From positions 1 through 60,601 of the forward strand of contig NZ_JBCDMW010000005.1 in NCBI RefSeq assembly GCF_038433155.1: DNA of 60,601 nt, written 5' to 3'. This DNA comes from Luteococcus sp. H101 (GTDB lineage: Bacteria; Actinomycetota; Actinomycetes; Propionibacteriales; Propionibacteriaceae). A program made the position numbers and the translations under genes. Below, in pieces: positions 4,642-23,065 of this stretch; position 1 is the stretch's first letter; each line of letters begins with the position of its first letter. Under the pieces are notes generated by a model. That model was not told the DNA's origin. It worked only from the letters and a program-made list of their open reading frames with translations, and searched no databases.

Positions 4642-5430
4642 ATGCCAGCTCCCCCGTGGTTCGTGGACCAGCTCGGCTGGAAAGCCTTGGAGGCCAAGAG
4701 CCAACCCATGTCGCAGGACCTCTTCGGAATCCCAAGGGCCCCCAACCTTGCCGACGTCGCCAACAAGCCGAGCCTCCGGCTCGGGGCGGCCATGCTCGAG
4801 TCGCTATCGGTCAGGAGGGGCGCATCCCCTGTTTCCTCCGGAAAGCCTGGCACGTTGCTGGAGGAGGGAATCCGGTCAGACCTCGCTGAGACCCTCGCGG
4901 CGCTGGAGCCCAGTATCGCTTGGGGTGTCACGCGCGGCGGAACCGTGGAGCGTTTCGCCCAGTACCAGCACCTAGCCAAGCTGAAGGACTTGCTCGCGGC
5001 ATACCCTGACATTCCCATGGCGATGGGCAAGGACTACCAGATCAAGACTGACGTGATGGTCTCCGTGCCGGACAAGACCGAGCCTGGCCAAGACATCCTT
5101 CACGCGGCCGTGTCGTCGAAGTTCACGATCCGGTCTGACCGGGTCCAGAACATCCGATTCGAGTTTGCCACGCTGCTGCGCACTAGGCAGGGGCGGGCAC
5201 CGCACTTGGTGGTCGTGACGGGCGAGCCATTGCCCAGCCGTGTCGCAGCCATTGCGCAGGGCACGGGTGAGGTCGATGCTGTGTACCACCTGCTCTTCGA
5301 TGAAGTCTCGGATGCCGTCACGGCCCTCTTCCCGGCTGGGGCGAGCCAGCGCCGGACGTGGGAAGAACTGGTAGAGCGCCAGCGGGTGCGGCCCTACGAG
5401 GAGCTGGTCCTAGCCTTGGTGAGTTCATGA
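4642..5430 (+). CDS. type II restriction endonuclease, NgoMIV/Cfr10I family (predicted GCCGGC-type)
   Basis: The segment HAAVSSKFTIRSDRVQNIRFEF...RAPHLVVVTGEPLPSRVAAIAQGTGEVDAVYH closely resembles my recollection of the NgoMIV catalytic region (SxK...E with downstream PH-VVVT-EP-PSR-I-LGTGE-D-VYH). An upstream PD is present (VMVSVPD). RBS gtgagg lies before the ATG. Confidence 0.55.
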   Translation: MPAPPWFVDQLGWKALEAKSQPMSQDLFGIPRAPNLADVANKPSLRLGAAMLESLSVRRGASPVSSGKPGTLLEEGIRSDLAETLAALEPSIAWGVTRGGTVERFAQYQHLAKLKDLLAAYPDIPMAMGKDYQIKTDVMVSVPDKTEPGQDILHAAVSSKFTIRSDRVQNIRFEFATLLRTRQGRAPHLVVVTGEPLPSRVAAIAQGTGEVDAVYHLLFDEVSDAVTALFPAGASQRRTWEELVERQRVRPYEELVLALVSS

Positions 5431-6149
5431 CCGGTCAGTTGTTCGAACCCACGGCCGGGGGTGGCCTTGGCTTCTGCCACGACGCTATGCCCGGGTTGCT
5501 CCCAGCGGGCTACCACGGACCATTGGTGGTCGCCATCGACTCCAATGTACTGATCGACCTGTACGAGTTTGGCACCCGGATGGTGGAGGACAGCCTTCCC
5601 GAGCCCCCAGAGGTTCCGGCCTCGAGGGCAGGGGAGCTGGAGGCGATCGCCAGCATTCTGGACTTGTGGCTCATCAGGGACATCCGGCTGGTCACGACGC
5701 CACGGATCCTGACTGACGCCAAAGCCAATCCCTCGCGGCTTGCCCGCCGGAGGCAGGACATCGAGCACCTGGCTCGTGCACTGGCCTTCCAGCTCGAGGA
5801 CTGGGAGGAGCCGTTTCCGCTAAAGGCGCCGGAGCCCTCGTCGCCGCCGACTGTGATTGGGGCCCGGGGCGAGGCTGACCGGCAGCTCGTGGAAGAGGCA
5901 GCTGCGATCGGGGCTCACGTTTTCCTGACTCAGGACAAGCGCTTGCGGCGACCTGTTTCCATCCCAGATGCCGCGACCCAGGTCCTCTACCCGAGCGAGC
6001 TGGCGGCCACGCTGGCGGGGGCGCGCGTCACCCACTTCTTCGGCGGCATCTGCGGTGGCAGTGACTGCCCCTACCCGGATTTCAGCATGCCCGCCCCGGA
6101 CCTGGGCCGGTACGTGCTGCTGGGCCTGTTTGCGCCAGCGCCTGCGTGA
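5427..6149 (+). CDS. PIN-domain nuclease-like protein, translationally coupled (ATGA overlap) to the restriction endonuclease gene
   Basis: VVAIDSNVLIDLYEF (PIN beta1 with Asp), later acidic residues, and the C-terminal AAIGAHVFLTQDKRL PIN-like motif. Confidence 0.45.
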   Translation: MTGQLFEPTAGGGLGFCHDAMPGLLPAGYHGPLVVAIDSNVLIDLYEFGTRMVEDSLPEPPEVPASRAGELEAIASILDLWLIRDIRLVTTPRILTDAKANPSRLARRRQDIEHLARALAFQLEDWEEPFPLKAPEPSSPPTVIGARGEADRQLVEEAAAIGAHVFLTQDKRLRRPVSIPDAATQVLYPSELAATLAGARVTHFFGGICGGSDCPYPDFSMPAPDLGRYVLLGLFAPAPA

Positions 6150-6538: not shown

Positions 6539-7537
6539 CTACTGGAACAGCAGCTCGGGTTCCTGGGCCCGGGCGGAGTTCTGGGGAGGTTCCGTGTCGA
6601 GGCGCGCGTTCAGGGCCTTGGCGATCTGGGTGCCGACAGCTGCGGCGACAGGCGGCGGGAAGGCATTGCCCACCTGGCGCCACGCGGCAGTCTTCGGGCC
6701 CGAGAACTTCCAGTCGGGCGGGAACCCCTGCACCAGGGCGCCCATCTCGACGGTCAGGCGCGGCGTGCCGGTGAAACCCGCCTCGGGTGCCGCCGGGGCG
6801 ATCGTCTTGCCGTCGACGCCCAGCTGGGCCCATGCCTTGCGGGCCCGGGTGGGCCCAAGGTCGGGGCCGCCATGCTTGTGCGAGCCCCCGACAAGGGTCG
6901 GGGCGATGGCGTTGGCCTGTCGGGCCCACTCGCTGGCACCCTCCCAGCCGTTGCTGGACATCAGGTCGAACAGGAGCTGCCCGACCGTGCGGGCTGGCTT
7001 CCGGGCAGGCTCGGGCCACGTGAAGTAGGCGTCCCACGGGTCCTTGATGGCGACCATGACGACGCGGGGGCGCAGTTGGGAGACGCCGAAGTCGCTGGCG
7101 TGCAGCAGCTTCCAGTGGGGGCGGAACCCCATGCTGGCCAGCTCGCGGGAGACCTCGTCGCGGAACCCCTCGAACTGCGGGTCCAGCAGCCCCCGGACGT
7201 TCTCGATCATCACGGCGCGGGGATCGGCCTGGCGGATCAGCTCCAGGGCGCGCGGGAACAGGTTGCGCTCGTCGTCGGCGCCCAGTTGCTTGCCAGCCTT
7301 CGAGAACGGGGGGCATGGCACGCCGCCTGCGAACAGGTCGACCTTGCCCTTGAAGGACTGCGCCGACCACTCGTTGAGGTCCATCTGGAGGGTGTTCCAC
7401 TGGGGCCGGTTCTGCCGCAGCGTCTCGCAGGCGCGTGCGTCCATCTCGACGCACGCGAGGTGCTTGAACCCCGCCGCCTCAAGGCCAAGCGCCTGGCCCC
7501 CTGCTCCGGCGCACACCTCTACGGACGTGAGTGGCAT
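6539..7537 (-). CDS. DNA (cytosine-5)-methyltransferase
   Basis: Motif I VCAGAGGQALG, motif IV GGVPCPPFS, motif VI IENVRGLL and motif X QVGNAFPPPVA. GGAGG RBS upstream of ATG 7537. Confidence 0.85.
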   Translation of the reverse strand: MPLTSVEVCAGAGGQALGLEAAGFKHLACVEMDARACETLRQNRPQWNTLQMDLNEWSAQSFKGKVDLFAGGVPCPPFSKAGKQLGADDERNLFPRALELIRQADPRAVMIENVRGLLDPQFEGFRDEVSRELASMGFRPHWKLLHASDFGVSQLRPRVVMVAIKDPWDAYFTWPEPARKPARTVGQLLFDLMSSNGWEGASEWARQANAIAPTLVGGSHKHGGPDLGPTRARKAWAQLGVDGKTIAPAAPEAGFTGTPRLTVEMGALVQGFPPDWKFSGPKTAAWRQVGNAFPPPVAAAVGTQIAKALNARLDTEPPQNSARAQEPELLFQ

Positions 7538-7732: not shown

Positions 7733-8656
7733 TCAGAACAGCAAGCCGTGCGGGGCGGGCCTGGCAGGCTCGTCCCTGGGCAGGCTCAGCCAGTCGCCCG
7801 GCCCCAGCGCGAACCCGGCGACGGCGGCCCGCTCTCGGTCCTCCAGCCACTTGCCGCACAGGAGGTCGGCATTGTGCTCCGCGAGCACGAGGGCCTTGAC
7901 CTCCCGGGCCCGGCGCAGCGGGTCGTCACGGTTGGCGCAGACAGTCAGGATGGCATGCCTGGGAATCACGGTCCCGGGCAGGAACCCGAACAGCCGCGTG
8001 AGGCGGCGTGCCTGGCCGGTGCCCGGCTCGAAGACCAGGTCACGCTCGTGCGGCTCGAGGTCCCGCAAGGGGTTGTGCGGCAGGGCCGACCAGGGGATGA
8101 CAATCATGCCGAACCGGTCCAGGGCTGCTGCGCGGATCGTTGTCTTCCGGTCCTGGTTGCGGCCGGCGTTCAGCCACGCGTGGTGGGTGCGCATGAGCTG
8201 CACCTGGAACCGGTCATGGCGGAAGTCGATGCGGACCAGCAGGCACAGCTGGCACTGGGCTTCCTGCGGAATCGTCCACGTGCGTGCGACCGTGACCTTG
8301 ATGTCGACCGGGACGCCCTCGATCCACGTGTCCAGCGGGCCTCTCTTCTCGAGCCCCAGCGCGGACAGGATCCGGTACTGCGCCTTCGTGCCGACCGAGC
8401 TGCGCTCGTCGGAGTCGACCTCCGGGTCGTTCAGGTCGAAGCGGCCGGTGTGGGCGCCGTCCAGCACGTACTGGATGCTGTCGTCGAGCGCAGCGGTCAT
8501 CGCGACCGGGACTGCAGGCCGGGACAGCCACGCCCGCACGGCCTGCAGCTGCGCGTCATCCGCCGGGTCCTCGAGGACATGGCCATCGGGGACGGTCCCC
8601 CGCCGGGCATCTGGCTGGCACCAGTCGCCCGGCTGGGCAATCGCGTCCGACGTCAT
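7733..8656 (-). CDS. PD-(D/E)XK nuclease, possibly NaeI-like type II restriction endonuclease
   Basis: GPLDTWIEGVPVDIKVT gives D-x9-D-x-K, the spacing reported for the NaeI active site. The gene is on the same strand as, and immediately upstream of, the C5-MTase. Start is ATG 8656; a GTG at 8662 is also possible. Confidence 0.35.
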   Translation of the reverse strand: MTSDAIAQPGDWCQPDARRGTVPDGHVLEDPADDAQLQAVRAWLSRPAVPVAMTAALDDSIQYVLDGAHTGRFDLNDPEVDSDERSSVGTKAQYRILSALGLEKRGPLDTWIEGVPVDIKVTVARTWTIPQEAQCQLCLLVRIDFRHDRFQVQLMRTHHAWLNAGRNQDRKTTIRAAALDRFGMIVIPWSALPHNPLRDLEPHERDLVFEPGTGQARRLTRLFGFLPGTVIPRHAILTVCANRDDPLRRAREVKALVLAEHNADLLCGKWLEDRERAAVAGFALGPGDWLSLPRDEPARPAPHGLLF

Positions 8657-8808
8657 GCGCACACGCTAGCGCCGGCACCGCGGCCTAGCCGAGCGGGGTC
8701 CGTTGCTGGAACCAAAGACTTGGCTGTGAAAACGGCACGTTGCCATCGCTGATCATCTAGGGTGCAAGTAGAGTGCAACTTTCCGCTTGTCGATGGTAAG
8801 GATCTGCG

Positions 8809-9636
8809 ATGAACAAGCCCTTTGGGCTTTCGGGCGAGCACTACACGCTGGATCGCCCTCCGGCAGTGTTCAGCGTCTTTGAGGTGCGGTACGGCGAGGG
8901 GCGCGAACACATCAACCTCCAGGCGGGTTACGACCTTCAGGAGTTCATGTCCAAAACCTTTCCTGGCGGAACGTGGAAGGTCGAGAAGTCCACGTGGCAG
9001 GAGGCCCAGGTGGAGCTGACGCCCCAAGGGCCCCGCCAGCAGTCCTACTCGGAGGTCGGCGTCCGCCTCACAAGCTCGGAACTCTCCTGCGAGATGACAT
9101 TCTTCCCTTCTAGGGCGGCGGTTCAGGTGAGCCAGTACACGCGCTGGAGTACGTCACTGAAACCACTGGTGAGCGCGGCCGTGCTGGCTGTCGAACAGCT
9201 GCTCAAGCCAGTGGGACGGGATCGTGTGGGGTTGCGATACGTGAACAACTTCCAGGACCAGAAGGCCGTGACACCCGGCTTCTGGGACGGCAAGATCGAG
9301 CCGTCCCTGCTAGGACCAGTAGCTGGCGGCCCGTTCACGGGCCAGCTGCGTGATGCGCAGAGCCAGCTGGTTCTCGACTTGGGAGGTGGCGCCGGCGCAG
9401 TACTACGGCACGGGCTGCTCGCCTCACCTGCCGCGCCTGCAAGCGTGGGCTACCTGCTGGACATCGACACTTTTGACGAGCACAGCGCTAGGTTCGATGC
9501 GGAGGATGTCATCACGCGGGCGGAAGTGCTCAACCGCAACGCAGCCGAACTGTTCCAGAGGAGCCTGACCGAGCGTTTCTCGGTGGCACTCGGCAAGCGC
9601 AAGGTTGAATCGCAGGGGAATGGAGACATGCAATGA
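8809..9636 (+). CDS. TIGR04255-like family protein (uncharacterised)
   Basis: N-terminal PAVFSVFEVRYGEG and the later RVGLRYVNNF match the remembered TIGR04255 signature. Good RBS (aagga). It is the first gene of a three-gene overlapping operon. Confidence 0.45.
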   Translation: MNKPFGLSGEHYTLDRPPAVFSVFEVRYGEGREHINLQAGYDLQEFMSKTFPGGTWKVEKSTWQEAQVELTPQGPRQQSYSEVGVRLTSSELSCEMTFFPSRAAVQVSQYTRWSTSLKPLVSAAVLAVEQLLKPVGRDRVGLRYVNNFQDQKAVTPGFWDGKIEPSLLGPVAGGPFTGQLRDAQSQLVLDLGGGAGAVLRHGLLASPAAPASVGYLLDIDTFDEHSARFDAEDVITRAEVLNRNAAELFQRSLTERFSVALGKRKVESQGNGDMQ

Positions 9637-10313
9637 CCGCTGCAGTGCTGACCCGTACACGAACGGGTAGTTTCCATCCTGACCCCTATGCCGGGTGTGG
9701 GGCCCTGGTCTCCCACACGGGAATCCGCTACGAGTCCGTCCCCGATGTCAATTTCAGCGGCCGGCTCTTGCGCATGGACTTGATCTTCTCCACAACGGGA
9801 GAGACCTGGGTGGGTGAAGCGCCGCCGTCGGAGATCGGCGAGGATGAGGCAATCACGGTCCCTGCCGTGGTCGCCATTGAAGAGGCCGCGCAAGCCCTGG
9901 GGTTGCCCGTCAAGTACCTCCGCGAGGGTGCAGGGATCAGTCCTCGCACGTTCCATCACTGGAAGAAGACGCCGGCTGTGCAGCCGCGTGTATCGAGCCA
10001 AGCCGATGTGTGGGCCCTCATGGACACGCTCGAGACCCTGAAGGATCTCGTGGACGGGGACCTCGGGCTCTGGCTGAGGGCCGACACGGCCCGAATGCGA
10101 TTGCTGCGCGGAGGGGACTTGATGGGCCTCGTACGCGAGGCAACTCGCCGCGAGAGCTTGCGCAGCAACCGGTCTCACTTTGAGGAAGCGATGGCGGTTG
10201 GCTTCTTCGTCGAGCCCAAGGAAGCACCTGGCCCCGTTGGGCCCCGCCCTGTGGTTCGCGCCCGGAGGGCCGCCAGGGGTCGCGTCGTCCCAAGGGAAGG
10301 ACAGGGGGCGTGA
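9633..10313 (+). CDS. hypothetical protein, coupled (ATGA overlap) to the TIGR04255-like gene
   Basis: ORF with ggaga RBS and a 4-nt start/stop overlap with the preceding gene. No domain recognised. Confidence 0.4.
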   Translation: MTAAVLTRTRTGSFHPDPYAGCGALVSHTGIRYESVPDVNFSGRLLRMDLIFSTTGETWVGEAPPSEIGEDEAITVPAVVAIEEAAQALGLPVKYLREGAGISPRTFHHWKKTPAVQPRVSSQADVWALMDTLETLKDLVDGDLGLWLRADTARMRLLRGGDLMGLVREATRRESLRSNRSHFEEAMAVGFFVEPKEAPGPVGPRPVVRARRAARGRVVPREGQGA

Positions 10314-11230
10314 GCCAAGGACACTTTCCCATCGACCGGCTCCATCCCACATTTGATGACTGGACGGACGACCAGGCGCAGGCCCTGGACAAGTGGTATC
10401 AGGGAGCTCTGTGTCCCAGCATTCCCTTGGGGTGGTACGCCCCCAGCGGACTCGATGGAATCACTTCCGTCGAGGGGTTCGACGCGTCGGATTGGCTGTC
10501 GCCTGAGGGAGTGACGGAGGTTCCCGCTGGGGCGATCGTTGTTTCGCAGACGTGTGACATTGTCCTGTCTGGGCCGGGGCGGAGGCATCCCTTCGTCCAA
10601 GTGAGTCCTGTGTGGGTCATGCCGCGAAAGGACCTGAGCCAGCTGGCCGACCTCCAGCGCTGGCGAGTCGTCGACAAGGTGTTGCTCGATCCTCCCGCGG
10701 AAGGGTTCGCCCTGCTTGGCGCCGAACTGGATGACCTTGAATCGGTCGCGGCAATCGCCGACCTGAGGATCTCGATGCCCGTCAGCAAGTCTGTGTTGCT
10801 GGCGCACCAGCCCGTCAAGGCCTTTTGTGGTGATGACGCCGCGCTGAAATTCGCCGGCCACCTGGCAACCAAAGCCGCCCGTCCAGCACTGCCCGACGTC
10901 GTTGCCGTGATGGGGCGCGTCTTGGACGAGGAGATCCGAGGCCTATCCGGTGAGAGGTGGATGAGCAGTGTCGAATCAGTCCGTGTCACCTGCAGCCCGA
11001 GCCGCCAGCATGCCGAGAAGATTCGGCTGCTCGTCCTCCACACCGGCAGCGGCCAGCTACCCGGCGAGGTCTATAGGCATTGGGACAGGCTCTGGAAGCG
11101 CGTCCGTAAGAACAAGCAGGTGAGGGCCTTCCCGGCAATCACCCTGGGAAAGCCGGAGCACCTTCGAGCCCGGGACCTGCTCGCCACGTCCTATCGGGAT
11201 AGCGATGAGCTTCGCCTCCAGCACCTGTAG
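10310..11230 (+). CDS. hypothetical protein, third gene of the operon (GTGA overlap)
   Basis: GTG start overlaps the previous stop. 306 aa with no recognised domain. Confidence 0.4.
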   Translation: MSQGHFPIDRLHPTFDDWTDDQAQALDKWYQGALCPSIPLGWYAPSGLDGITSVEGFDASDWLSPEGVTEVPAGAIVVSQTCDIVLSGPGRRHPFVQVSPVWVMPRKDLSQLADLQRWRVVDKVLLDPPAEGFALLGAELDDLESVAAIADLRISMPVSKSVLLAHQPVKAFCGDDAALKFAGHLATKAARPALPDVVAVMGRVLDEEIRGLSGERWMSSVESVRVTCSPSRQHAEKIRLLVLHTGSGQLPGEVYRHWDRLWKRVRKNKQVRAFPAITLGKPEHLRARDLLATSYRDSDELRLQHL

Positions 11231-11309: not shown

Positions 11310-12557
11310 ATGAGCGACCTAGAAGATATCGGCTTCGACCACGATCAAGTTCAGGAGGAAGGCGAACCCTCCAGTAGCTCATGGCTTGACGAGCCTTCCG
11401 AGCCGGACGATGAGGTACGCGTCGACGAGTATGACATCGTCTCATCCCCCAATGACTGGAACTGCCTGACGATCACGTCCTTCATCGACTCTGGTGCCGT
11501 CAAGATTCCCAACTTCCAGAGAAACTACGTCTGGGACCAGAAGCGGGCATCCAAACTCATCGAGTCACTCCTTTTGGGCCTGCCGATCCCGCAGGTATTC
11601 CTCTACGAGGAGGCCCGGAACTCGTTCCTGGTCATTGATGGCCAGCAGCGCCTGCTCACGCTGTACTTCTACATGAAGGGCAGGTTCCCGAAGACATCTA
11701 GCCGGGCTGCAGTGCGGCATCTGCTCCAAGGGGGTCAGGGGATCGACCAGGCAAAACTTGCAGACGATGACCTCTTCGAGGATTTCAAGCTGAAGTTGCC
11801 GAGCCGGACTGACGGGTCAAGGAACAAGTTCCACGGGAAGAAGTACTTGGGGCTCGAGGACTACAAGTCGACGCTGGACCTTCGCACCATCCGCAACATC
11901 GTCGTCAAGCAGACCACGCCAGAGGGCGATGCTGCGATGTTCGAGATCTTCAACCGCCTGAACTCGCAAGGCGTGAACCTGACCCCCCAAGAGATTCGAG
12001 CAAGCCTCTTCCACTCCAAGCTGATGCAATCGGTCATCGGCATGAACGAAGATCATGGCTGGCGAACCGTCTTGGGGCTGAAGACGCCCGACCCGCGCAT
12101 GAAGGACACGGAAGTACTCCTGCGCTCCTTGGCCCTGGCCCGGGATCTCAACTCCTACTCGGGCACGATGGCTAACTTCATCAACCGGTTCGCGGGTAGC
12201 GCCAAGCGCTACAGTGACGCTCAGGCAGACGATGCAATCGCGGACCTGCGCTCCTTTATTGGTGCCGTAGCAGCAGTCGGCCATCCGGAAGCACCGGAGG
12301 CTTTCCGACGTGGTGGAAAGTTCAGCGGCATCCTCTTCGAGTCAGTCTTTGCGGCTTGGGTTCAGCTCGGAAAGCAAGCAGATGGGGAACAAGTCGTCCA
12401 AGTAGCCAAGCAGGTACGAGAACACAACACGTTTGCGGACAGCCTGCAGGAGGGGTCGACGAAGTCGGTCAATGTCAAGAAGCGGATCAATCTTGCCAAG
12501 GCGTACTTCCAGGGGGAGGAACCCGAAGAGGACAAGAACCCGGAGGCTGAGGAGTGA
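11310..12557 (+). CDS. DUF262 (ParB/Srx-like, DGQQR motif) domain protein, GmrSD N-terminal-domain-like
   Basis: FQRNYVWDQKRASKLIESLLLGLPIPQVFLYE...LVIDGQQRLLTL is the canonical DUF262 signature. There is no DUF1524/HNH C-terminal part. Local GC is visibly lower than the host average. Confidence 0.75.
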   Translation: MSDLEDIGFDHDQVQEEGEPSSSSWLDEPSEPDDEVRVDEYDIVSSPNDWNCLTITSFIDSGAVKIPNFQRNYVWDQKRASKLIESLLLGLPIPQVFLYEEARNSFLVIDGQQRLLTLYFYMKGRFPKTSSRAAVRHLLQGGQGIDQAKLADDDLFEDFKLKLPSRTDGSRNKFHGKKYLGLEDYKSTLDLRTIRNIVVKQTTPEGDAAMFEIFNRLNSQGVNLTPQEIRASLFHSKLMQSVIGMNEDHGWRTVLGLKTPDPRMKDTEVLLRSLALARDLNSYSGTMANFINRFAGSAKRYSDAQADDAIADLRSFIGAVAAVGHPEAPEAFRRGGKFSGILFESVFAAWVQLGKQADGEQVVQVAKQVREHNTFADSLQEGSTKSVNVKKRINLAKAYFQGEEPEEDKNPEAEE

Positions 12558-13090
12558 GTGCAGAGGGGACGCCGGCGGCAGTGGCGTCGCTTAGCGATGA
12601 CATCGCTTACATGGAAGTGCTCTTGTCCGCGGACCCCTCGGCGTTGGCAGCCTTGGGCAGGATCGCCCCCAAGGTGCTCCTCATCGCTGCCGCCAGTGCC
12701 CTGGAGGACCAAGTCAAGGAGGAACTGCAGCGACTTGCCCGGGCTCATGGTCACGCTGAGTTGGCCGAGTGCGTGACCCGGGGAATCCTGGCGAGGGGCT
12801 ATCACACGTTGTTCGAGTGGGATAAGACGAATGCCAACAGGTTCTTTGCCCTGTTTGGTCCGGACGCCAAGGAACGGTGCCAAGCGGCTGTGGGAGCAGA
12901 TGAGGCCCTCGATCGCTCGGTGCGGGCCTTTCTTGAGCTCGGCAGGTTGCGTAACAACCTGGTGCACAACAACTACGTGACGTTCGAGGTGCCAAAGACC
13001 GTGCTGGACATCGTGGAACTCTACGAGGCAGCACGAGTCTTCCCCACGAGATTCGGTGAACTCCTTTTCCTGAATCCCCAAGCAGCATGA
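12554..13090 (+). CDS. HEPN-like protein (Rx4H motif RLRNNLVH), overlapping the DUF262 gene stop
   Basis: GTG start overlaps the upstream TGA. The C-terminal LELGRLRNNLVHNNY fits the HEPN R-x4-6-H motif. Confidence 0.5.
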   Translation: MSAEGTPAAVASLSDDIAYMEVLLSADPSALAALGRIAPKVLLIAAASALEDQVKEELQRLARAHGHAELAECVTRGILARGYHTLFEWDKTNANRFFALFGPDAKERCQAAVGADEALDRSVRAFLELGRLRNNLVHNNYVTFEVPKTVLDIVELYEAARVFPTRFGELLFLNPQAA

Positions 13091-13111: not shown

Positions 13112-13336
13112 ATGGGCCACCTGATCGACTTCCCCGGACACCTTCAGGAGCCCTTGGGCATCTTCCGGGCGGTGTCGTCCCGCGATGGTGTGGCATGCGA
13201 GCGGGACGGCCAGGTCTACGTGGCCATGAACATGCTCGGTTCCAGCAGCGGCCGGGCAGTGGCAGAAGTCCAGTTCAGCGACGGCGTGTGGATCCTCGCG
13301 GACCCGGAACACGACCTGTTCCCGTTGGATCCGTAG
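13112..13336 (+). CDS. small hypothetical protein
   Basis: 74-aa ORF in an otherwise empty gap. No domain. Confidence 0.2.
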   Translation: MGHLIDFPGHLQEPLGIFRAVSSRDGVACERDGQVYVAMNMLGSSSGRAVAEVQFSDGVWILADPEHDLFPLDP

Positions 13337-13367
13337 AACTGTCAGTGCCGTCCGCCACGATGGCGCC

Positions 13368-13628
13368 ATGTCTTCCCGCATTCGCTCCGACTTCGGCACG
13401 CTGGCTGACCGTGCCCGCGGGATGCAGGAGACCAAGGCCACGGTCCCGGGCCATGCCTGGGCGAAGTTCGGTGATGGCTGGCGGCCGGTGCTGCTGGTGC
13501 GCTGGATCCGGAACCTCGACGGCACCTGGGCCGGTGAGGTCGCGGCTGTCGACGACACCGGCCAGGCCGGTCTGTTCGTCATCGCCGGCAGCCTGCTGCG
13601 CGCAGATGCGCCTGTGGGCGAACAGTGA
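13368..13628 (+). CDS. small hypothetical protein
   Basis: 86-aa ORF. A short GC hairpin (ccggg-ggaa-cccgg, ~13667-13682) follows it, before the convergent gene. Confidence 0.2.
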   Translation: MSSRIRSDFGTLADRARGMQETKATVPGHAWAKFGDGWRPVLLVRWIRNLDGTWAGEVAAVDDTGQAGLFVIAGSLLRADAPVGEQ

Positions 13629-15018: not shown

Positions 15019-15204
15019 TCAGTCCAAACCTCTGGCCGACCGTGCGTGCACCCGCACGCTCCAACCCTGGGGCGGCCTGGCTTCCGGGCGCTTGGATGGT
15101 GGTTTTGGGATGGTCGGGACCTCTGCTCCCATGGCGCGCAGGATCGCAACAGCCTTCTGACGTTCTGCCAGCGTGTACGCCGGCGTGGTGTCCTTGGCGG
15201 TCAT
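15019..15204 (-). CDS. small hypothetical protein coupled to the upstream HTH gene
   Basis: 62 aa (MTAKDTTPAYTLAERQKAVAILRAMG...). GGAGG RBS, and ATGA overlap with the stop of the 15201..15902 gene. Confidence 0.3.
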   Translation of the reverse strand: MTAKDTTPAYTLAERQKAVAILRAMGAEVPTIPKPPSKRPEARPPQGWSVRVHARSARGLD

Positions 15205-15902
15205 GGCGTGCCTCCTTGGTGCGCTGCCCTCAGGATCTGGGGCCAGGTGCCGAACCTCTTGCGCACCAGCGTGCCCGACGGGGCACCGGCCTGGGCGGAA
15301 AGCCACGATTCCAGGCCAGTGATGGTCCACGGACCGGGCGTCTCCAAGTAGCGGCAAACCCACCGGGCGAGGTCCCCGTCGCTGAACTGGCGTGTCCGGC
15401 CGCCGGACCGAACGGTCACGCCCACGGATTGCAAGGCTGCTGCCCAGGTGCCGTGCCGGCGCAGGACGGTGGCCAGGGAAGGCCAGTCCCGGCCTGCCCG
15501 CAGTGCCGTGAACTGGGCCATGCTGGGCGTGTCCGTGAGAGCCACGAACTCACGCAAGGCGTCCTCGATGGCCTCGTCCGGGGTGGCCTTGGCCCGCCGT
15601 GGTGGCCGGTGCAGCGCTGCCCGGTCCCCGAGGATCGATCGAAGCTCGCTGGTGTTGCAGCCCAGGCCCGACTGGTTAAGCGGGACACCGGGGTTGGCAG
15701 CGGACCAGGTCAACGCGCGGCGTTCGAGATCCTCACGGGCTTGCTGGATGCGCCGTTCCCGTTCGGCGCGCAGGGCGGGCGTGAGGGCCAGGATGTCGTA
15801 GACGCGGGTTGGTGACAGGCGGTGCTGCCGCGCGATGCGGGTGACGCGCTCGCCCGACAGCCACGCCTCGAGGATGGCACGGTCCCGGGCGGCACTGGTC
15901 AC
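15201..15902 (-). CDS. helix-turn-helix DNA-binding protein
   Basis: N-terminal ILEAWLSGERVTRIARQHRLSPTRVYDIL HTH. GTG start. Lies downstream of the FRG gene on the same strand. Confidence 0.45.
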   Translation of the reverse strand: MTSAARDRAILEAWLSGERVTRIARQHRLSPTRVYDILALTPALRAERERRIQQAREDLERRALTWSAANPGVPLNQSGLGCNTSELRSILGDRAALHRPPRRAKATPDEAIEDALREFVALTDTPSMAQFTALRAGRDWPSLATVLRRHGTWAAALQSVGVTVRSGGRTRQFSDGDLARWVCRYLETPGPWTITGLESWLSAQAGAPSGTLVRKRFGTWPQILRAAHQGGTP

Positions 15903-15930
15903 AGGCCCAGCGTAGGAGGCGGCAGGCAGG

Positions 15931-16926
15931 TTAGTTGGTGATCATGCCGGCGTAGTCCGTGTCTGCGACCGCTGGGATCGCCTCGGCGATGGTTTCTGGT
16001 TGCTGCCAGTCAGGAGTGAAATCCACGGTGACATCCCTTTGAGCCAAGGCCAGGGCGAAGCCCGCGAGATCCGGGTACAAGGTCTGGTGCGACTTGCCCA
16101 TCGCCTTCAGCACCTCCAGCAGTCGCCCCTTCCATGCTGCGGGAATGATGGCGGCGGCGAAGCGCGGGGCACTCTCGTCGAGGTTGACCGACGCATCGTG
16201 GAGGAGGGCGTTGAGGTCCGCTGGTTTCGCATGGAGGCCGAAGGCCAGGCAATCCGTGACCGCAGCCCATGGTGCCGCGGGCACCAGTCCGTCAGGCAGC
16301 ATCCCGATGAGGAAGGCTCCCTGCTGGGCTGTCATGCGCGCGTCGCGGATCGTGGGGACCAGAACGACAGGATGGGTGTCGGCCATCTCCAAAATCCGCT
16401 TCAACGCATTGCGGAGAGGATCTCCCACATCGTCCCAGGTCCCCCACGGGCGCTCATGGGTCTCCTTGCTGTACTCAGCGTCGACAGCGAACAGGATGCC
16501 GTCCCGGTCGGGAAGATCACTGCAGGCGAACCACAAGGCCGTGAACGGGTCCCGGCTGACGTCGATGAGGCGGGTGGGCACGCCGTGGTGCTGCATCTGG
16601 GCCAGGAGTTGCAGGTCCGGGATGTGGCTCGCGCCCATCGTCCCCAGCCCCCAGTTGCGTGCTTGCTCGATCAATGCGCGCTCAGCCTTCTCCAGCGGGA
16701 TCGTGTCCGCCAGGCCGTTCGTTCGCAGGTGTCGCTGCAGGCTGGATTCCAGCTTCCAGGCAGCGTCGGCCTGTCCACGCCAGACGTAGCCGCCAACAGC
16801 GGGACCGAGCTGGGTCAGCCGCATCGTGAAAGCCAATATCTGGTCGATCGATTCGGGCTGCACCGCCCAGCCGTCACGAACCCACTGCGCTGGCTGCAGC
16901 CCGTGAGCTGTCGGGGGCATGTTCAT
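15931..16926 (-). CDS. FRG-domain protein
   Basis: YVWRGQADAAWKLESSLQR and QHHGVPTRLIDVSRDPFTALWFAC correspond to the FRG domain signature. Confidence 0.65.
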   Translation of the reverse strand: MNMPPTAHGLQPAQWVRDGWAVQPESIDQILAFTMRLTQLGPAVGGYVWRGQADAAWKLESSLQRHLRTNGLADTIPLEKAERALIEQARNWGLGTMGASHIPDLQLLAQMQHHGVPTRLIDVSRDPFTALWFACSDLPDRDGILFAVDAEYSKETHERPWGTWDDVGDPLRNALKRILEMADTHPVVLVPTIRDARMTAQQGAFLIGMLPDGLVPAAPWAAVTDCLAFGLHAKPADLNALLHDASVNLDESAPRFAAAIIPAAWKGRLLEVLKAMGKSHQTLYPDLAGFALALAQRDVTVDFTPDWQQPETIAEAIPAVADTDYAGMITN

Positions 16927-21827: not shown

Positions 21828-21990
21828 ATGAGCGACATTCGGAGCGGCAAGGACCCGCGCAAGGCTGTTGACGACTGGATCGCGGACTTCGTGGCCCGCG
21901 GCCCGCAGGACCTCCCGGAACCTGCGGGCCGCATCCTGCGGCGCGCGGTGGCCGAGGCTAAGCAGAAGCGGGGCCGTCGTGCGGCGTGAG
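21828..21990 (+). CDS. possible small basic ORF (53 aa, below ORF-track cutoff)
   Basis: ATG at 21828 reads MSDIRSGKDPRKAVDDWIADFVARGPQDL... to a stop at 21990. Weak support. Confidence 0.15.
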
Positions 21991-22012
21991 GCGAAGAGCA
22001 TCCACACCAAAA

Positions 22013-22072
22013 GATGCAAGCAGTGAAGAGCAATGCTTGCATCCCCGACACTGTCTACGCATGAAATGCAAG
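22013..22072. promoter_or_regulatory. 10-bp perfect inverted repeat GATGCAAGCA-N11-TGCTTGCATC plus a third ATGCAAGCAT copy, upstream of the P63C/Bro-like gene and downstream of int
   Basis: Read at 22013-22043 and 22063-22072. Operator-like, or an attP remnant of a nested element. Confidence 0.35.
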
Positions 22073-22084
22073 CATGGAGGATCA

Positions 22085-23065
22085 ATGCGTGCTCAAGCAG
22101 GGGAAGAGCAACAGGCCGTGACAGGCCGGAGGAAGGGCGGGGTAGCCAGGGCGCGAAGCCTTACCCCCGAACGACGAACACAGATCAGCAGGGAGGCCGC
22201 CAAAGCGCGGTGGGACATGAAGGAGGCTGTCTGCGGCTCAGCCGAACGGCCCCTCGCGATTGGGCCCGCGAAGGTGGAGTGCTACGTCCTTGAAGACGGC
22301 ATCCGGGTACTGACCCAGGCGACCTTTCTTGAAGCGCTGGGCCGGCATCGCAAGGCGAACACGCGACGCGAGGATTCAGGCCTTCCACCGGTGTTGCAGG
22401 GGCAGGCGATCCGGCCTTTCATTCCCGAGCGAGCCTTCGAAATCGCAGGCACAGTCACCTTCAGGCTTCCCACGGGAGGTCGTGCCAGCGGTTATAACGC
22501 GGAGCTGCTCCCGCTCGTCTGTGAGGCGTACCTGGCCGCGCGAGAGGCCGGCAAGCTTCCCTACAACCAGTTGCACGTCGCCCAGCAGGCGGAAGTGCTG
22601 ATTCGTGCCCTGGCCAAGGTCGGCATCATCGCCCTAGTGGACGAAGCCACTGGGTACCAAGAGGTCAGGGAACGTAACGCGCTGGCACGCATCCTCGAGG
22701 AGTACGTAGCAAGCGAGCTCCAGCCATGGGTCCCTACGTTTCCCGATGACTTCTACCGGGAAATGTTCCGCCTGCGTGGTCATGGCCGCCCCGAGTCGCT
22801 GTCCAGGAGACCCAGCTACTTCGGCAACTTGACCAACGACATCGTGTACGAGCGCCTGGCGCCGGGGGTGCTGGACGAACTGAAGCGGTCAACACCCCGC
22901 TCATCAGCCGGGCGGCGTATCCGTAAGTTTCATCAAGGCCTGACTCCGGACAAGGGACACCCCAAGCTCCGGGAGCACCTCTCCTCGGTCGTGACCATCA
23001 TGAAACTCAGCGACTCTTGGGACGACTTCACGACGAAGTTGGATCACATCCACCCCAAATTCTGA
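22085..23065 (+). CDS. phage-associated protein, Bro-N/KilA-N or P63C-like
   Basis: GGAGG RBS before ATG 22085. N-terminal KVECYVLEDGIRVLTQATFLEALG resembles Bro-N/KilA-N-type DNA-binding domains. Confidence 0.4.
   Translation: MRAQAGEEQQAVTGRRKGGVARARSLTPERRTQISREAAKARWDMKEAVCGSAERPLAIGPAKVECYVLEDGIRVLTQATFLEALGRHRKANTRREDSGLPPVLQGQAIRPFIPERAFEIAGTVTFRLPTGGRASGYNAELLPLVCEAYLAAREAGKLPYNQLHVAQQAEVLIRALAKVGIIALVDEATGYQEVRERNALARILEEYVASELQPWVPTFPDDFYREMFRLRGHGRPESLSRRPSYFGNLTNDIVYERLAPGVLDELKRSTPRSSAGRRIRKFHQGLTPDKGHPKLREHLSSVVTIMKLSDSWDDFTTKLDHIHPKF

What the first reader, a model, noticed from the sequence alone, without database searches (positions are those of the whole stretch)
11310..13090. 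Split DUF262 (DGQQR ParB-like nuclease) plus HEPN (Rx4H) gene pair
A 415-aa protein with a textbook DUF262 N-terminal domain lacks the usual DUF1524/HNH partner domain of GmrSD/SspE/BrxU-type enzymes. Instead its stop overlaps the start of a 178-aa protein ending in an HEPN-like RLRNNLVH motif. A DUF262 sensor/NTPase-like module teamed with a separate HEPN RNase would be a variant architecture of type IV restriction or abortive-infection systems. The region also has conspicuously lower GC than its flanks.
Basis: partly seen in the sequence, partly recalled or inferred. Interest (0 to 1): 0.6.

Follow-up and report, generated by a model that had tools for sequence, protein, structure and literature searches.

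The report
PD-T4-2-type DUF262–HEPN defence gene pair
The two overlapping genes are real, but they are a distant actinobacterial copy of an already described two-gene anti-phage system (PD-T4-2: a ParB-like DUF262 protein plus a small HEPN RNase-type protein), so this is a correct but ordinary find.

Summary
Gene A (11310-12557, 415 aa) is a DUF262/ParB-like protein with an intact DGQQR motif and no DUF1524. Gene B (12554-13090, 178 aa) starts on a GTGA overlap and is an all-helical HEPN protein with an invariant R133-N-x3-H138. The pair is the lowest-GC 1.8 kb of the window.

The "variant architecture" is not new. A "ParB + RiboL-PSP-HEPN" operon was tabulated in 2013 (PMC3710099). It was validated as anti-phage system PD-T4-2 ("DUF262, HEPN") in E. 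coli in 2022 (PMC9519451). RefSeq already names these two proteins "DUF262 domain-containing" and "HEPN domain-containing".

In 56 of 64 evaluable loci from many phyla, plasmids and prophages, an A-homologue is followed within -29 to +14 nt by a small gene. Of the 46 distinct downstream proteins scanned, 44 match PF18735. A and B co-diverge (rho 0.89).

Window A matches the PD-T4-2_A model over its full length. Window B misses the narrow PADLOC PD-T4-2_B model, but its clade aligns to the E. coli-type clade at 96.9% hhalign probability.

The likely mechanism is a DNA-sensing NTPase switch controlling a HEPN RNase. This is inferred, and no mechanistic study of PD-T4-2 turned up in the library searched. 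Verdict: new member of a known kind, low to moderate interest.

The parts
11310..12557 (+). Gene A: 415-aa ParB-like DUF262 NTPase-type protein plus a C-terminal helical (ParBDB-type) domain. It is of the PD-T4-2_A / NsnA type and has no DUF1524.
   Evidence: ORF. Pfam PF03235 E 7e-32. PADLOC NsnA 1e-51 over residues 38-400 and PD-T4-2_A 9e-39. AF2 pLDDT 85.8. Foldseek best hits are SspE, BrxU and ParB/Noc. 28% identity, E 5e-46, over residues 39-402 to an E. coli prophage A protein that passes the PD-T4-2 models.
11310..11432 (+). Acidic N-terminal tail of A (residues 1-41) with a conserved Trp (W24-L-D). It is largely disordered or low-confidence in the model (pLDDT below 50 for residues 1-20).
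   Evidence: Sequence. Low pLDDT. Acidic tails containing Trp are also present in homologues from other phyla and in the A3 consensus 'WLD'. Function unknown.
11637..11651 (+). DGQQR motif of A (D110-R114), the nucleotide-binding signature of DUF262.
   Evidence: Read directly from the sequence. Invariant in 80 homologues. The role in the NTP pocket is taken from GmrSD/SspE literature summarised in PMC10952713.
12542..12557 (+). Translational-coupling junction: GGAGG Shine-Dalgarno (12542-12546), then GTGA, where B's GTG start (12554) overlaps A's TGA stop (12555-12557).
   Evidence: Sequence. The A-stop to B-start distance is -29 to +14 nt in all 39 paired loci measured.
12554..13090 (+). Gene B: 178-aa all-alpha HEPN protein of the RiboL-PSP-HEPN family (PF18735), the predicted RNase effector.
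12950..12967 (+). Rx4H catalytic-type motif of B (R133-N-N-L-V-H138).
   Evidence: Sequence. R133 is invariant and N134/H138 are at least 90% conserved in 132 sequences. R and H are at least 90% conserved in 47 partners from all clades. An R[N/H]xxxH motif occurs at the equivalent position in 44 of 46 distinct partner ORFs.

Best explanation
This is a self-contained, horizontally acquired two-gene anti-phage module of the PD-T4-2 type, sitting in a defence island of a Luteococcus genome.

Gene A encodes a ParB-like DUF262 protein with an intact DGQQR nucleotide pocket and a C-terminal helical DNA-binding-type domain. Gene B is translationally coupled to A and encodes a small HEPN protein with an Rx4H site.

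Shown here: domain identities, the fold of each protein, conservation of the motifs, near-obligate adjacency of the two genes and their co-divergence across phyla, plasmids and prophages, and homology to E. coli pairs that satisfy the PD-T4-2 models.

From the literature: the E. coli PD-T4-2 pair protects against T4 both when cloned and in its native strain.

Inferred, not shown: A acts as the sensor/switch. By analogy with the DUF262 domains of GmrSD, BrxU and SspE, it binds invading (possibly modified) DNA, and NTP binding or hydrolysis changes its conformation. This releases or activates the HEPN partner, probably acting as a dimer, which cleaves RNA (tRNA, rRNA or mRNA) and stops phage production, probably at the cost of the infected cell.
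For: Domain calls.

Architecture in the literature: PD-T4-2 = 'DUF262, HEPN'. By HHpred, PD-T4-2A is PF03235 at 99.7% and PD-T4-2B is PF18735 at 97.8%. Deleting the system in ECOR65 restores T4 plaquing. The 'Ribo L-PSP-HEPN ... operon with ParB' entry is in PMC3710099.

Conserved pairing:
- B-first look-ups: 3 of 3 contexts have GmrSD_N directly upstream.
- A-first look-ups: 8 of 9 species genomes, 3 of 3 plasmids examined, 5 of 5 actinobacterial places, 39 of 46 evaluable viral contigs, and an E. coli P2-like prophage.
- 45 of 47 distinct partners, including the window's, hit PF18735.

Co-divergence of A and B: rho 0.89. Intergenic distance: -29 to +14 nt.

Homology to bona fide PD-T4-2.

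Structures.

Foreign origin and defence context: lowest GC in the window. Neighbours are NgoMIV- and NaeI-type REases, a C5 methylase and FRG/PDC-S15.
Against: - Window B does not hit the PADLOC PD-T4-2_B model.
- It has no BLASTP similarity to an E. coli plasmid B protein.
- hhalign against single E. coli B sequences gives only 9-30% probability. Only the clade-to-clade profile comparison is convincing.
- Window B's own Pfam score (26.8 bits) is just below the gathering score of 28.4.
- The papers found by my PD-T4-2 searches give no biochemical data on any PD-T4-2-type pair. Sensor, trigger, RNA target and Abi versus direct immunity are therefore all inference.
- Nothing was tested in an actinobacterium.
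Confidence: 0.8

Rival explanations
1. The pair is primarily a toxin-antitoxin or addiction module. B is a HEPN toxin held in check by A, and the pair stabilises mobile elements rather than sensing phage. This is not mutually exclusive with defence.
For: The genes overlap and are translationally coupled. The pair is essentially the only cargo of a 3.9-kb E. coli plasmid. It lies directly after, and overlaps, the rep gene of IncX1 plasmids. Many solved HEPN neighbours are TA toxins, such as the HepN toxins, RnlA and LsoA.
Against: The E. coli homologue was selected for phage defence and validated in its native strain. Vassallo's list of TA-like systems does not include PD-T4-2. A is a large, highly conserved NTPase-type protein with an invariant catalytic-type motif, unlike a simple antitoxin. 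There is no MNT-type partner.
Confidence: 0.12
2. A is a type IV (modification-dependent) restriction component that works with a nuclease encoded elsewhere, and B is a non-catalytic accessory or regulatory HEPN, like MtlR.
Against: R and H of Rx4H are conserved in at least 90% of partners across all clades, which argues for catalysis. No other gene is conserved next to the pair. The neighbouring NaeI genes in two genera are only 26% identical, so the adjacency is coincidental.
Confidence: 0.05
3. It is a degenerate Menshen system: an orphan NsnA that has lost NsnB and NsnC.
For: A's best PADLOC hit is NsnA (E 1e-51, full length).
Against: No ABC-ATPase or NsnC-like gene follows. The downstream gene is a PF18735 HEPN in the window and in 56 of 64 related loci. 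E. coli A proteins that pass PD-T4-2_A also score higher on NsnA, so the NsnA model is simply broader.
Confidence: 0.02

Closest known systems
PD-T4-2 (Vassallo et al. 2022, E. coli ECOR65; PADLOC PD-T4-2_A/_B)
   Same: Two co-directional, tightly coupled genes, with the DUF262 protein (no DUF1524) first and a small PF18735-type HEPN second. Window A matches the PD-T4-2_A model across its length and aligns end-to-end with an E. coli prophage A protein. The B clades are homologous by profile-profile comparison with Rx4H aligned. The pair is found on mobile elements and in defence islands.
   Different: Very divergent. A is about 28% identical to the E. coli prophage A protein, and B has no pairwise similarity to an E. 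coli plasmid B protein and misses the PADLOC B model. The window's B clade has a conserved block, RxYHTxFxW...NANxFFxLFG (residues 81-102), that the E. coli clade lacks. A has a longer acidic N-tail. The host is a high-GC actinobacterium, whose phages are not known to carry T-even-type glucosyl-hmC (my own knowledge, not checked here).
'Ribo L-PSP-HEPN in operon with ParB' (Anantharaman et al. 2013, HEPN superfamily survey)
   Same: Exactly this gene-neighbourhood class: a PF18735 HEPN next to a ParB-fold (DUF262) gene.
   Different: That entry is a one-line comparative-genomics observation without functional data.
GmrSD / BrxU / SspE (DUF262-DUF1524 enzymes)
   Same: The N-terminal DUF262 ParB-like NTPase domain with DGQQR, followed by a helical domain. 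They are the best structural matches.
   Different: There is no DUF1524/HNH DNase domain. The effector is a separate HEPN (RNase-type) protein.
Menshen (NsnABC)
   Same: A has the NsnA architecture, ParB-DUF262 plus a ParBDB-type C-terminal domain, and gives a full-length hit to the NsnA model.
   Different: There is no NsnB ABC-ATPase transducer and no NsnC inPIN-nuclease effector. A HEPN protein follows directly instead.

Membership tests
PD-T4-2 | Two adjacent same-strand genes, with the DUF262 protein first and the small HEPN protein second | tested here: met
   415 aa plus 178 aa with a 4-nt overlap. Vassallo Tables S1/S3 define the system as 'DUF262, HEPN'.
PD-T4-2 | Component A is homologous to PD-T4-2_A | tested here: met
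   PADLOC PD-T4-2_A E 8.7e-39. 28% identity, E 5e-46, over residues 39-402 to the E. coli P2-prophage A protein, which itself scores 1.8e-55 on PD-T4-2_A.
PD-T4-2 | Component B passes the PADLOC PD-T4-2_B model (an operational detection criterion, not a biological definition) | tested here: not met
   No hit at E <= 0.1. The model is narrow. An E. coli IncX1 'HEPN' partner and 7 of 8 partners from species genomes also miss it.
PD-T4-2 | Component B is a PF18735-type HEPN homologous to PD-T4-2_B-type proteins | tested here: met
   PF18735 E 6e-6. hhalign of the window's B clade (132 sequences) against the E. coli/proteobacterial clade, which includes a protein scoring 1.4e-8 on PD-T4-2_B: probability 96.9%, E 1.4e-10, 155 columns, Rx4H aligned.
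PD-T4-2 | Protects against phage | not testable with these tools
   Known only for the E. coli system.
GmrSD-type type IV restriction enzymes | DUF262 N-terminal domain with DGQQR | tested here: met
GmrSD-type type IV restriction enzymes | DUF1524 (His-Me/HNH) nuclease domain, fused or adjacent | tested here: not met
   No DUF1524 in A, B or the flanking genes.
Menshen (NsnABC) | NsnA-like protein with ParB-DUF262 plus ParBDB | tested here: met
   PADLOC NsnA 1.1e-51, residues 38-400 on model positions 39-379 of 385.
Menshen (NsnABC) | NsnB ABC-ATPase and NsnC effector immediately downstream | tested here: not met
   The downstream gene is a 178-aa HEPN, followed by a convergent DUF218 gene.
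HEPN superfamily (protein B) | Rx4-6H motif conserved in the family | tested here: met
   R133-x4-H138. R is invariant and H is at least 90% conserved.
HEPN superfamily (protein B) | All-alpha HEPN fold | tested here: met
HEPN superfamily (protein B) | Metal-independent RNase activity | not testable with these tools
   Needs biochemistry.
HEPN-MNT toxin-antitoxin | Adjacent minimal nucleotidyltransferase partner | tested here: not met
   The partner is DUF262, not MNT.

The most novel reading that the evidence does not exclude
The actinobacterial clade may use a different trigger and control logic from the E. coli system. This clade is invisible to the current PADLOC B model. Its HEPN carries a clade-specific conserved loop (R81xYHTxFxW...NANxFFxLFG), and its DUF262 protein has an acidic, Trp-bearing N-terminal tail. 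One possibility is that the acidic tail acts as a nucleic-acid mimic that occupies A's DNA site or the HEPN groove until displaced by unmodified phage DNA. That would make it a tractable model for how DUF262 switches gate a separate RNase.
Probability: 0.12. Interest if true: 0.5.

Novelty: new member of a known kind. Interest (0 to 1): 0.22.

Why it matters
On its own the locus adds little. The architecture has been published, validated in E. coli, and is already annotated by RefSeq.

Its modest value has three parts:
- It shows that the PD-T4-2-type module is a broad, tightly co-evolving two-gene family spanning Actinomycetota, Bacillota, Bacteroidota and Pseudomonadota, as well as plasmids and prophages.
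- The PADLOC PD-T4-2_B model misses most of the partners tested here, so this system is probably under-counted in defence censuses.
- No mechanistic study of the family turned up in the library searched, and neither family has a close sequence relative among solved structures. Any tractable member could therefore help explain how a DUF262 NTPase controls a separate RNase.

Tried and rejected
- PADLOC on B and its closest relatives gave no hit. I interpret this as a narrow model, not absence of homology.
- BLASTP of window B against the E. coli IncX1 partner gave nothing.
- hhalign of the B clade against single E. coli sequences gave only 9-30% probability. Only clade-versus-clade comparison worked.
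- I could not obtain the ECOR65 PD-T4-2 sequences themselves. An E. coli P2-prophage pair that passes both PADLOC models served as proxy.
- The promoter/terminator scan found nothing above shuffles.
- There are no tRNA genes in the window and no convincing flanking direct repeats or att sites. The island boundaries therefore remain undefined beyond the GC dip from about 8.7 to 13.2 kb.
- NaeI lies next to the pair in both Luteococcus and Paeniglutamicibacter, which suggested co-inheritance. The NaeI proteins are only 26% identical against 56% for A, so I rejected this.
- The upstream three-gene operon (8809-11230) and the small ORFs downstream (13112-13628) are not conserved next to the pair elsewhere and have no Pfam hits. 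They are not part of the system.
- Sequence-only searches of the PDB found no solved relative for B and only a marginal DUF262 hit for A.

Full report
**1. Observation**

- A is 11310-12557 (+), 415 aa, with an ATG start.
- B is 12554-13090 (+), 178 aa, with a GTG start.

B's GTG overlaps A's TGA stop as GTGA, and a GGAGG lies 7 nt upstream. The N-terminus of B from 12554 aligns with its nearest homologues, which supports that start over the in-frame ATG at 12611.

A carries Pfam GmrSD_N/DUF262 at residues 59-234 (E 7e-32). It has no DUF1524. Its IDGQQRL motif (residues 109-115) is invariant at D110-R114 in 80 homologues.

B contains RLRNNLVH at residues 131-138, about 40 residues before the C-terminus rather than at the end.

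The pair has GC 0.587 against 0.689 for the window. It is the lowest of all 1.78-kb stretches in the window, and its GC3 is 0.73-0.75 against 0.80-0.91 for most neighbours.

**2. What the proteins are**

Protein A:
- It matches the PADLOC NsnA model over residues 38-400 (E 1e-51) and PD-T4-2_A (E 9e-39).
- So it has both the ParB-like DUF262 domain and the C-terminal helical domain that Li et al. 2025 call ParBDB.
- The AF2 model (pLDDT 85.8) finds SspE, BrxU and ParB/Noc CTPases as its best solved neighbours.
- Residues 1-20 are disordered, and the first ~40 residues are acidic with a conserved Trp.

Protein B:
- It scores 26.8 bits (E 6e-6) on PF18735 HEPN_RiboL-PSP, just under the gathering score of 28.4. 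The collection's precomputed label for it is PF18735, and NCBI names it 'HEPN domain-containing protein [Luteococcus]'.
- A profile of B and its two close relatives finds 770 cluster representatives at E <= 1e-3. Among the 150 listed, most are 170-190 aa.
- In 132 of them R133 is invariant, and N134 and H138 are at least 90% conserved.
- The AF2 model is confident (pLDDT 93.3) and all-helical.

**3. Is the pairing conserved?**

Yes, almost without exception.

| Starting point | Loci with the partner |
|---|---|
| B's close homologues (GmrSD_N gene of 386-391 aa directly upstream) | 3 of 3 contexts |
| A in species genomes (alpha- and gamma-proteobacteria, Bacteroidota, Bacillota and other MAGs); 154-205-aa ORF downstream, all 8 hitting PF18735 | 8 of 9 |
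| A in plasmids examined (E. coli IncX1, a 3.9-kb E. coli plasmid, Exiguobacterium), annotated by RefSeq as DUF262 + HEPN | 3 of 3 |
| A in Paeniglutamicibacter, Micrococcus luteus and Streptomyces mirabilis | 5 of 5 places |
| A in evaluable IMG/VR viral contigs | 39 of 46 |
| E. coli P2-like prophage, between the CI repressor and the integrase | 1 of 1 |

Overall, 56 of 64 evaluable A-first loci have the partner.
- Of 47 distinct partner proteins scanned, including the window's, 45 hit PF18735.
- 44 of the 46 non-window partners have R[N/H]xxxH at the equivalent position.
- The exceptions are other DUF262 architectures (786-863-aa or 461-aa proteins) and one low-GC phage lineage that lacks the partner.
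- Similarity of A and of B to the window proteins is strongly correlated across 39 loci (Spearman 0.89), with B decaying faster.
- The A-stop to B-start distance is always -29 to +14 nt.
- No third gene is conserved next to the pair.

The module is therefore a co-evolving, self-contained two-gene unit.

**4. Comparison with what is known**

Three sources already describe this architecture:
- Anantharaman et al. 2013 list 'Ribo L-PSP-HEPN ... operon with ParB'.
- Vassallo et al. 2022 recovered PD-T4-2 from E. coli ECOR65 in a T4 selection and describe it as 'DUF262, HEPN'. By HHpred, PD-T4-2A is PF03235 (99.7%) and PD-T4-2B is PF18735 (97.8%). Deleting it in the native strain restores T4 plaquing.
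- Reviews list PD-T4-2 with Menshen and Dazbog as DUF262 systems without DUF1524.

I could not obtain the ECOR65 sequences. Instead I used an E. coli P2-prophage pair that passes both PADLOC models (A 1.8e-55, B 1.4e-8).
- Window A aligns to that A protein over residues 39-402 (28% identity, E 5e-46).
- Window B has no pairwise similarity to an E. coli IncX1 plasmid B protein.
- hhalign of the window's B clade against single E. coli sequences (plasmid and prophage) gives only 9-30% probability.
- Window B also misses the PADLOC B model. That model is clearly narrow, because most partners from other phyla and an E. coli plasmid partner miss it too.
- Profile-versus-profile comparison of the window's B clade with the E. 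coli/proteobacterial clade gives 96.9% probability and E 1.4e-10. It covers 155 columns, essentially the whole protein, with Rx4H aligned.

I therefore file the locus as a distant member of the PD-T4-2 kind. I exclude two alternatives:
- GmrSD membership, because there is no DUF1524.
- Menshen membership, because there is no NsnB or NsnC. The NsnA model scores higher than PD-T4-2_A even for E. coli PD-T4-2-type A proteins.

**5. Mechanism**

Nothing mechanistic on PD-T4-2 turned up in the library searched, and neither family has a close sequence relative among solved structures. The mechanism below is inference from domain biology.
- The DUF262 domains of GmrSD, BrxU and SspE bind NTP through DGQQR and couple DNA recognition to activation of an attached nuclease (summarised).
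- HEPN domains are typically dimeric, metal-independent RNases with Rx4-6H sites.
- The most likely model is that A senses invading DNA and, through its NTP-dependent conformational switch, licenses B to cut RNA and arrest infection.
- Tight translational coupling and co-divergence argue for a physical A-B complex.
- A TA-like or addiction role is a plausible overlapping reading, given the pair's position on tiny plasmids and next to rep genes.

**6. Context**

The window is a Luteococcus contig. The pair sits in a defence island containing:
- an NgoMIV-type REase (4642-5430);
- a C5 methylase (6539-7537, minus strand);
- a NaeI-type REase (7733-8662, minus strand);
- a three-gene TIGR04255/Xre-like/unknown operon (8809-11230);
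- an HNH-repeat/HTH protein;
- an FRG-domain protein that matches the PADLOC candidate PDC-S15.

No tRNA genes, att repeats or integrase were found near the pair.

**7. Verdict**

The architecture is already known, experimentally validated in E. coli and annotated by RefSeq. Novelty: new member of a known kind. Interest is low to moderate.

The residual value is threefold: the family's breadth and tight co-evolution, its probable under-detection by the current PADLOC B model, and its mechanism, which remains uncharacterised in the literature searched.

Noticed in passing
window 4642-5430 (+), 6539-7537 (-), 7733-8662 (-): Two restriction endonucleases, of the NgoMIV family (E 7e-40) and the NaeI family (E 4e-29), flank a single C5 cytosine methylase. 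From my own knowledge, both families recognise GCCGGC, so this may be a doubled R-M system sharing one methylase. A weak PIN_3 ORF lies between them at 5358-6149.
   Followed up: partly
window 8809-11230 (+): Three genes with overlapping stops and starts lie directly upstream of the pair: a TIGR04255 family protein (E 4e-23), a protein with a weak Xre-like HTH, and an unknown 306-aa protein. They share the pair's lowered GC3 (0.75-0.76) and have no PADLOC hits. They are not conserved next to the pair elsewhere. This may be a separate uncharacterised defence or TA cassette.
   Followed up: partly
window 15201-16926 (-): An FRG-domain protein (15931-16926) matches the PADLOC candidate system PDC-S15 (E 4.5e-32). 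Next to it is an HNH-repeat/HTH protein (15201-15902). Both are further defence-island content.
   Followed up: no
window 11310-11432 (A residues 1-41); also L004, L005, L010, L011: The N-terminal tail of the DUF262 protein is strongly acidic and carries a conserved Trp (WLD in actinobacteria; DW or AW elsewhere) across phyla. Residues 1-20 have pLDDT below 50 in the AF2 model. It could be an autoinhibitory or partner-docking peptide, but this is unexplained.
   Followed up: partly
window 12794-12859 (B residues 81-102): The window's HEPN clade has a highly conserved block, R81-x-Y-H-T-x-F-x-W ... N-A-N-x-F-F-x-L-F-G (W89 and G102 invariant). It lies in a mostly non-helical segment of the model and is absent from the E. 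coli/proteobacterial clade. It is a candidate interface with A or a substrate-binding loop.
   Followed up: partly
L069 2916-4686; L013 2950-4590; L014 179-1882: In E. coli the same pair sits in three settings: in a P2-like prophage between the CI repressor and the integrase; on IncX1 plasmids overlapping the end of the rep gene; and as essentially the only cargo of 3.9-4.5-kb plasmids. The E. coli plasmid pair (L014) was found nearly identical on small plasmids of 4 of the 5426 complete E. coli genomes, and its DUF262 N-terminal part matched 10 chromosomes at about 69% DNA identity.
   Followed up: partly
L043, L044, L046 (IMG/VR contigs, 27-28% GC): One lineage of full-length A-like genes (420-445 aa, with an N-terminal extension) has no HEPN partner downstream. 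Unrelated small ORFs follow instead. This could be partner loss, replacement, or a phage-encoded decoy.
   Followed up: no
L056-L064 (IMG/VR contigs): Distant A relatives (23-28% identity) are paired with longer HEPN proteins (188-232 aa). Ten partners in the set also match PF18737 HEPN_MAE_28990, and I take these to be this group (per-member Pfam results were not returned, so this is inferred). [quoted passage not shown] The ParB-HEPN pairing would then span two HEPN families.
   Followed up: partly
window 7733-8662 and L016 2557-3489: A NaeI-family gene lies just upstream of the pair in both Luteococcus and Paeniglutamicibacter. The NaeI proteins are only 26% identical, against 56% for the DUF262 proteins, so the adjacency arose independently.
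   Followed up: yes
window 21986-23065 (+): An ORF with a P63C domain (E 4.5e-31) lies about 9 kb downstream. It hints at phage- or mobile-element-derived DNA further along the contig.
   Followed up: no
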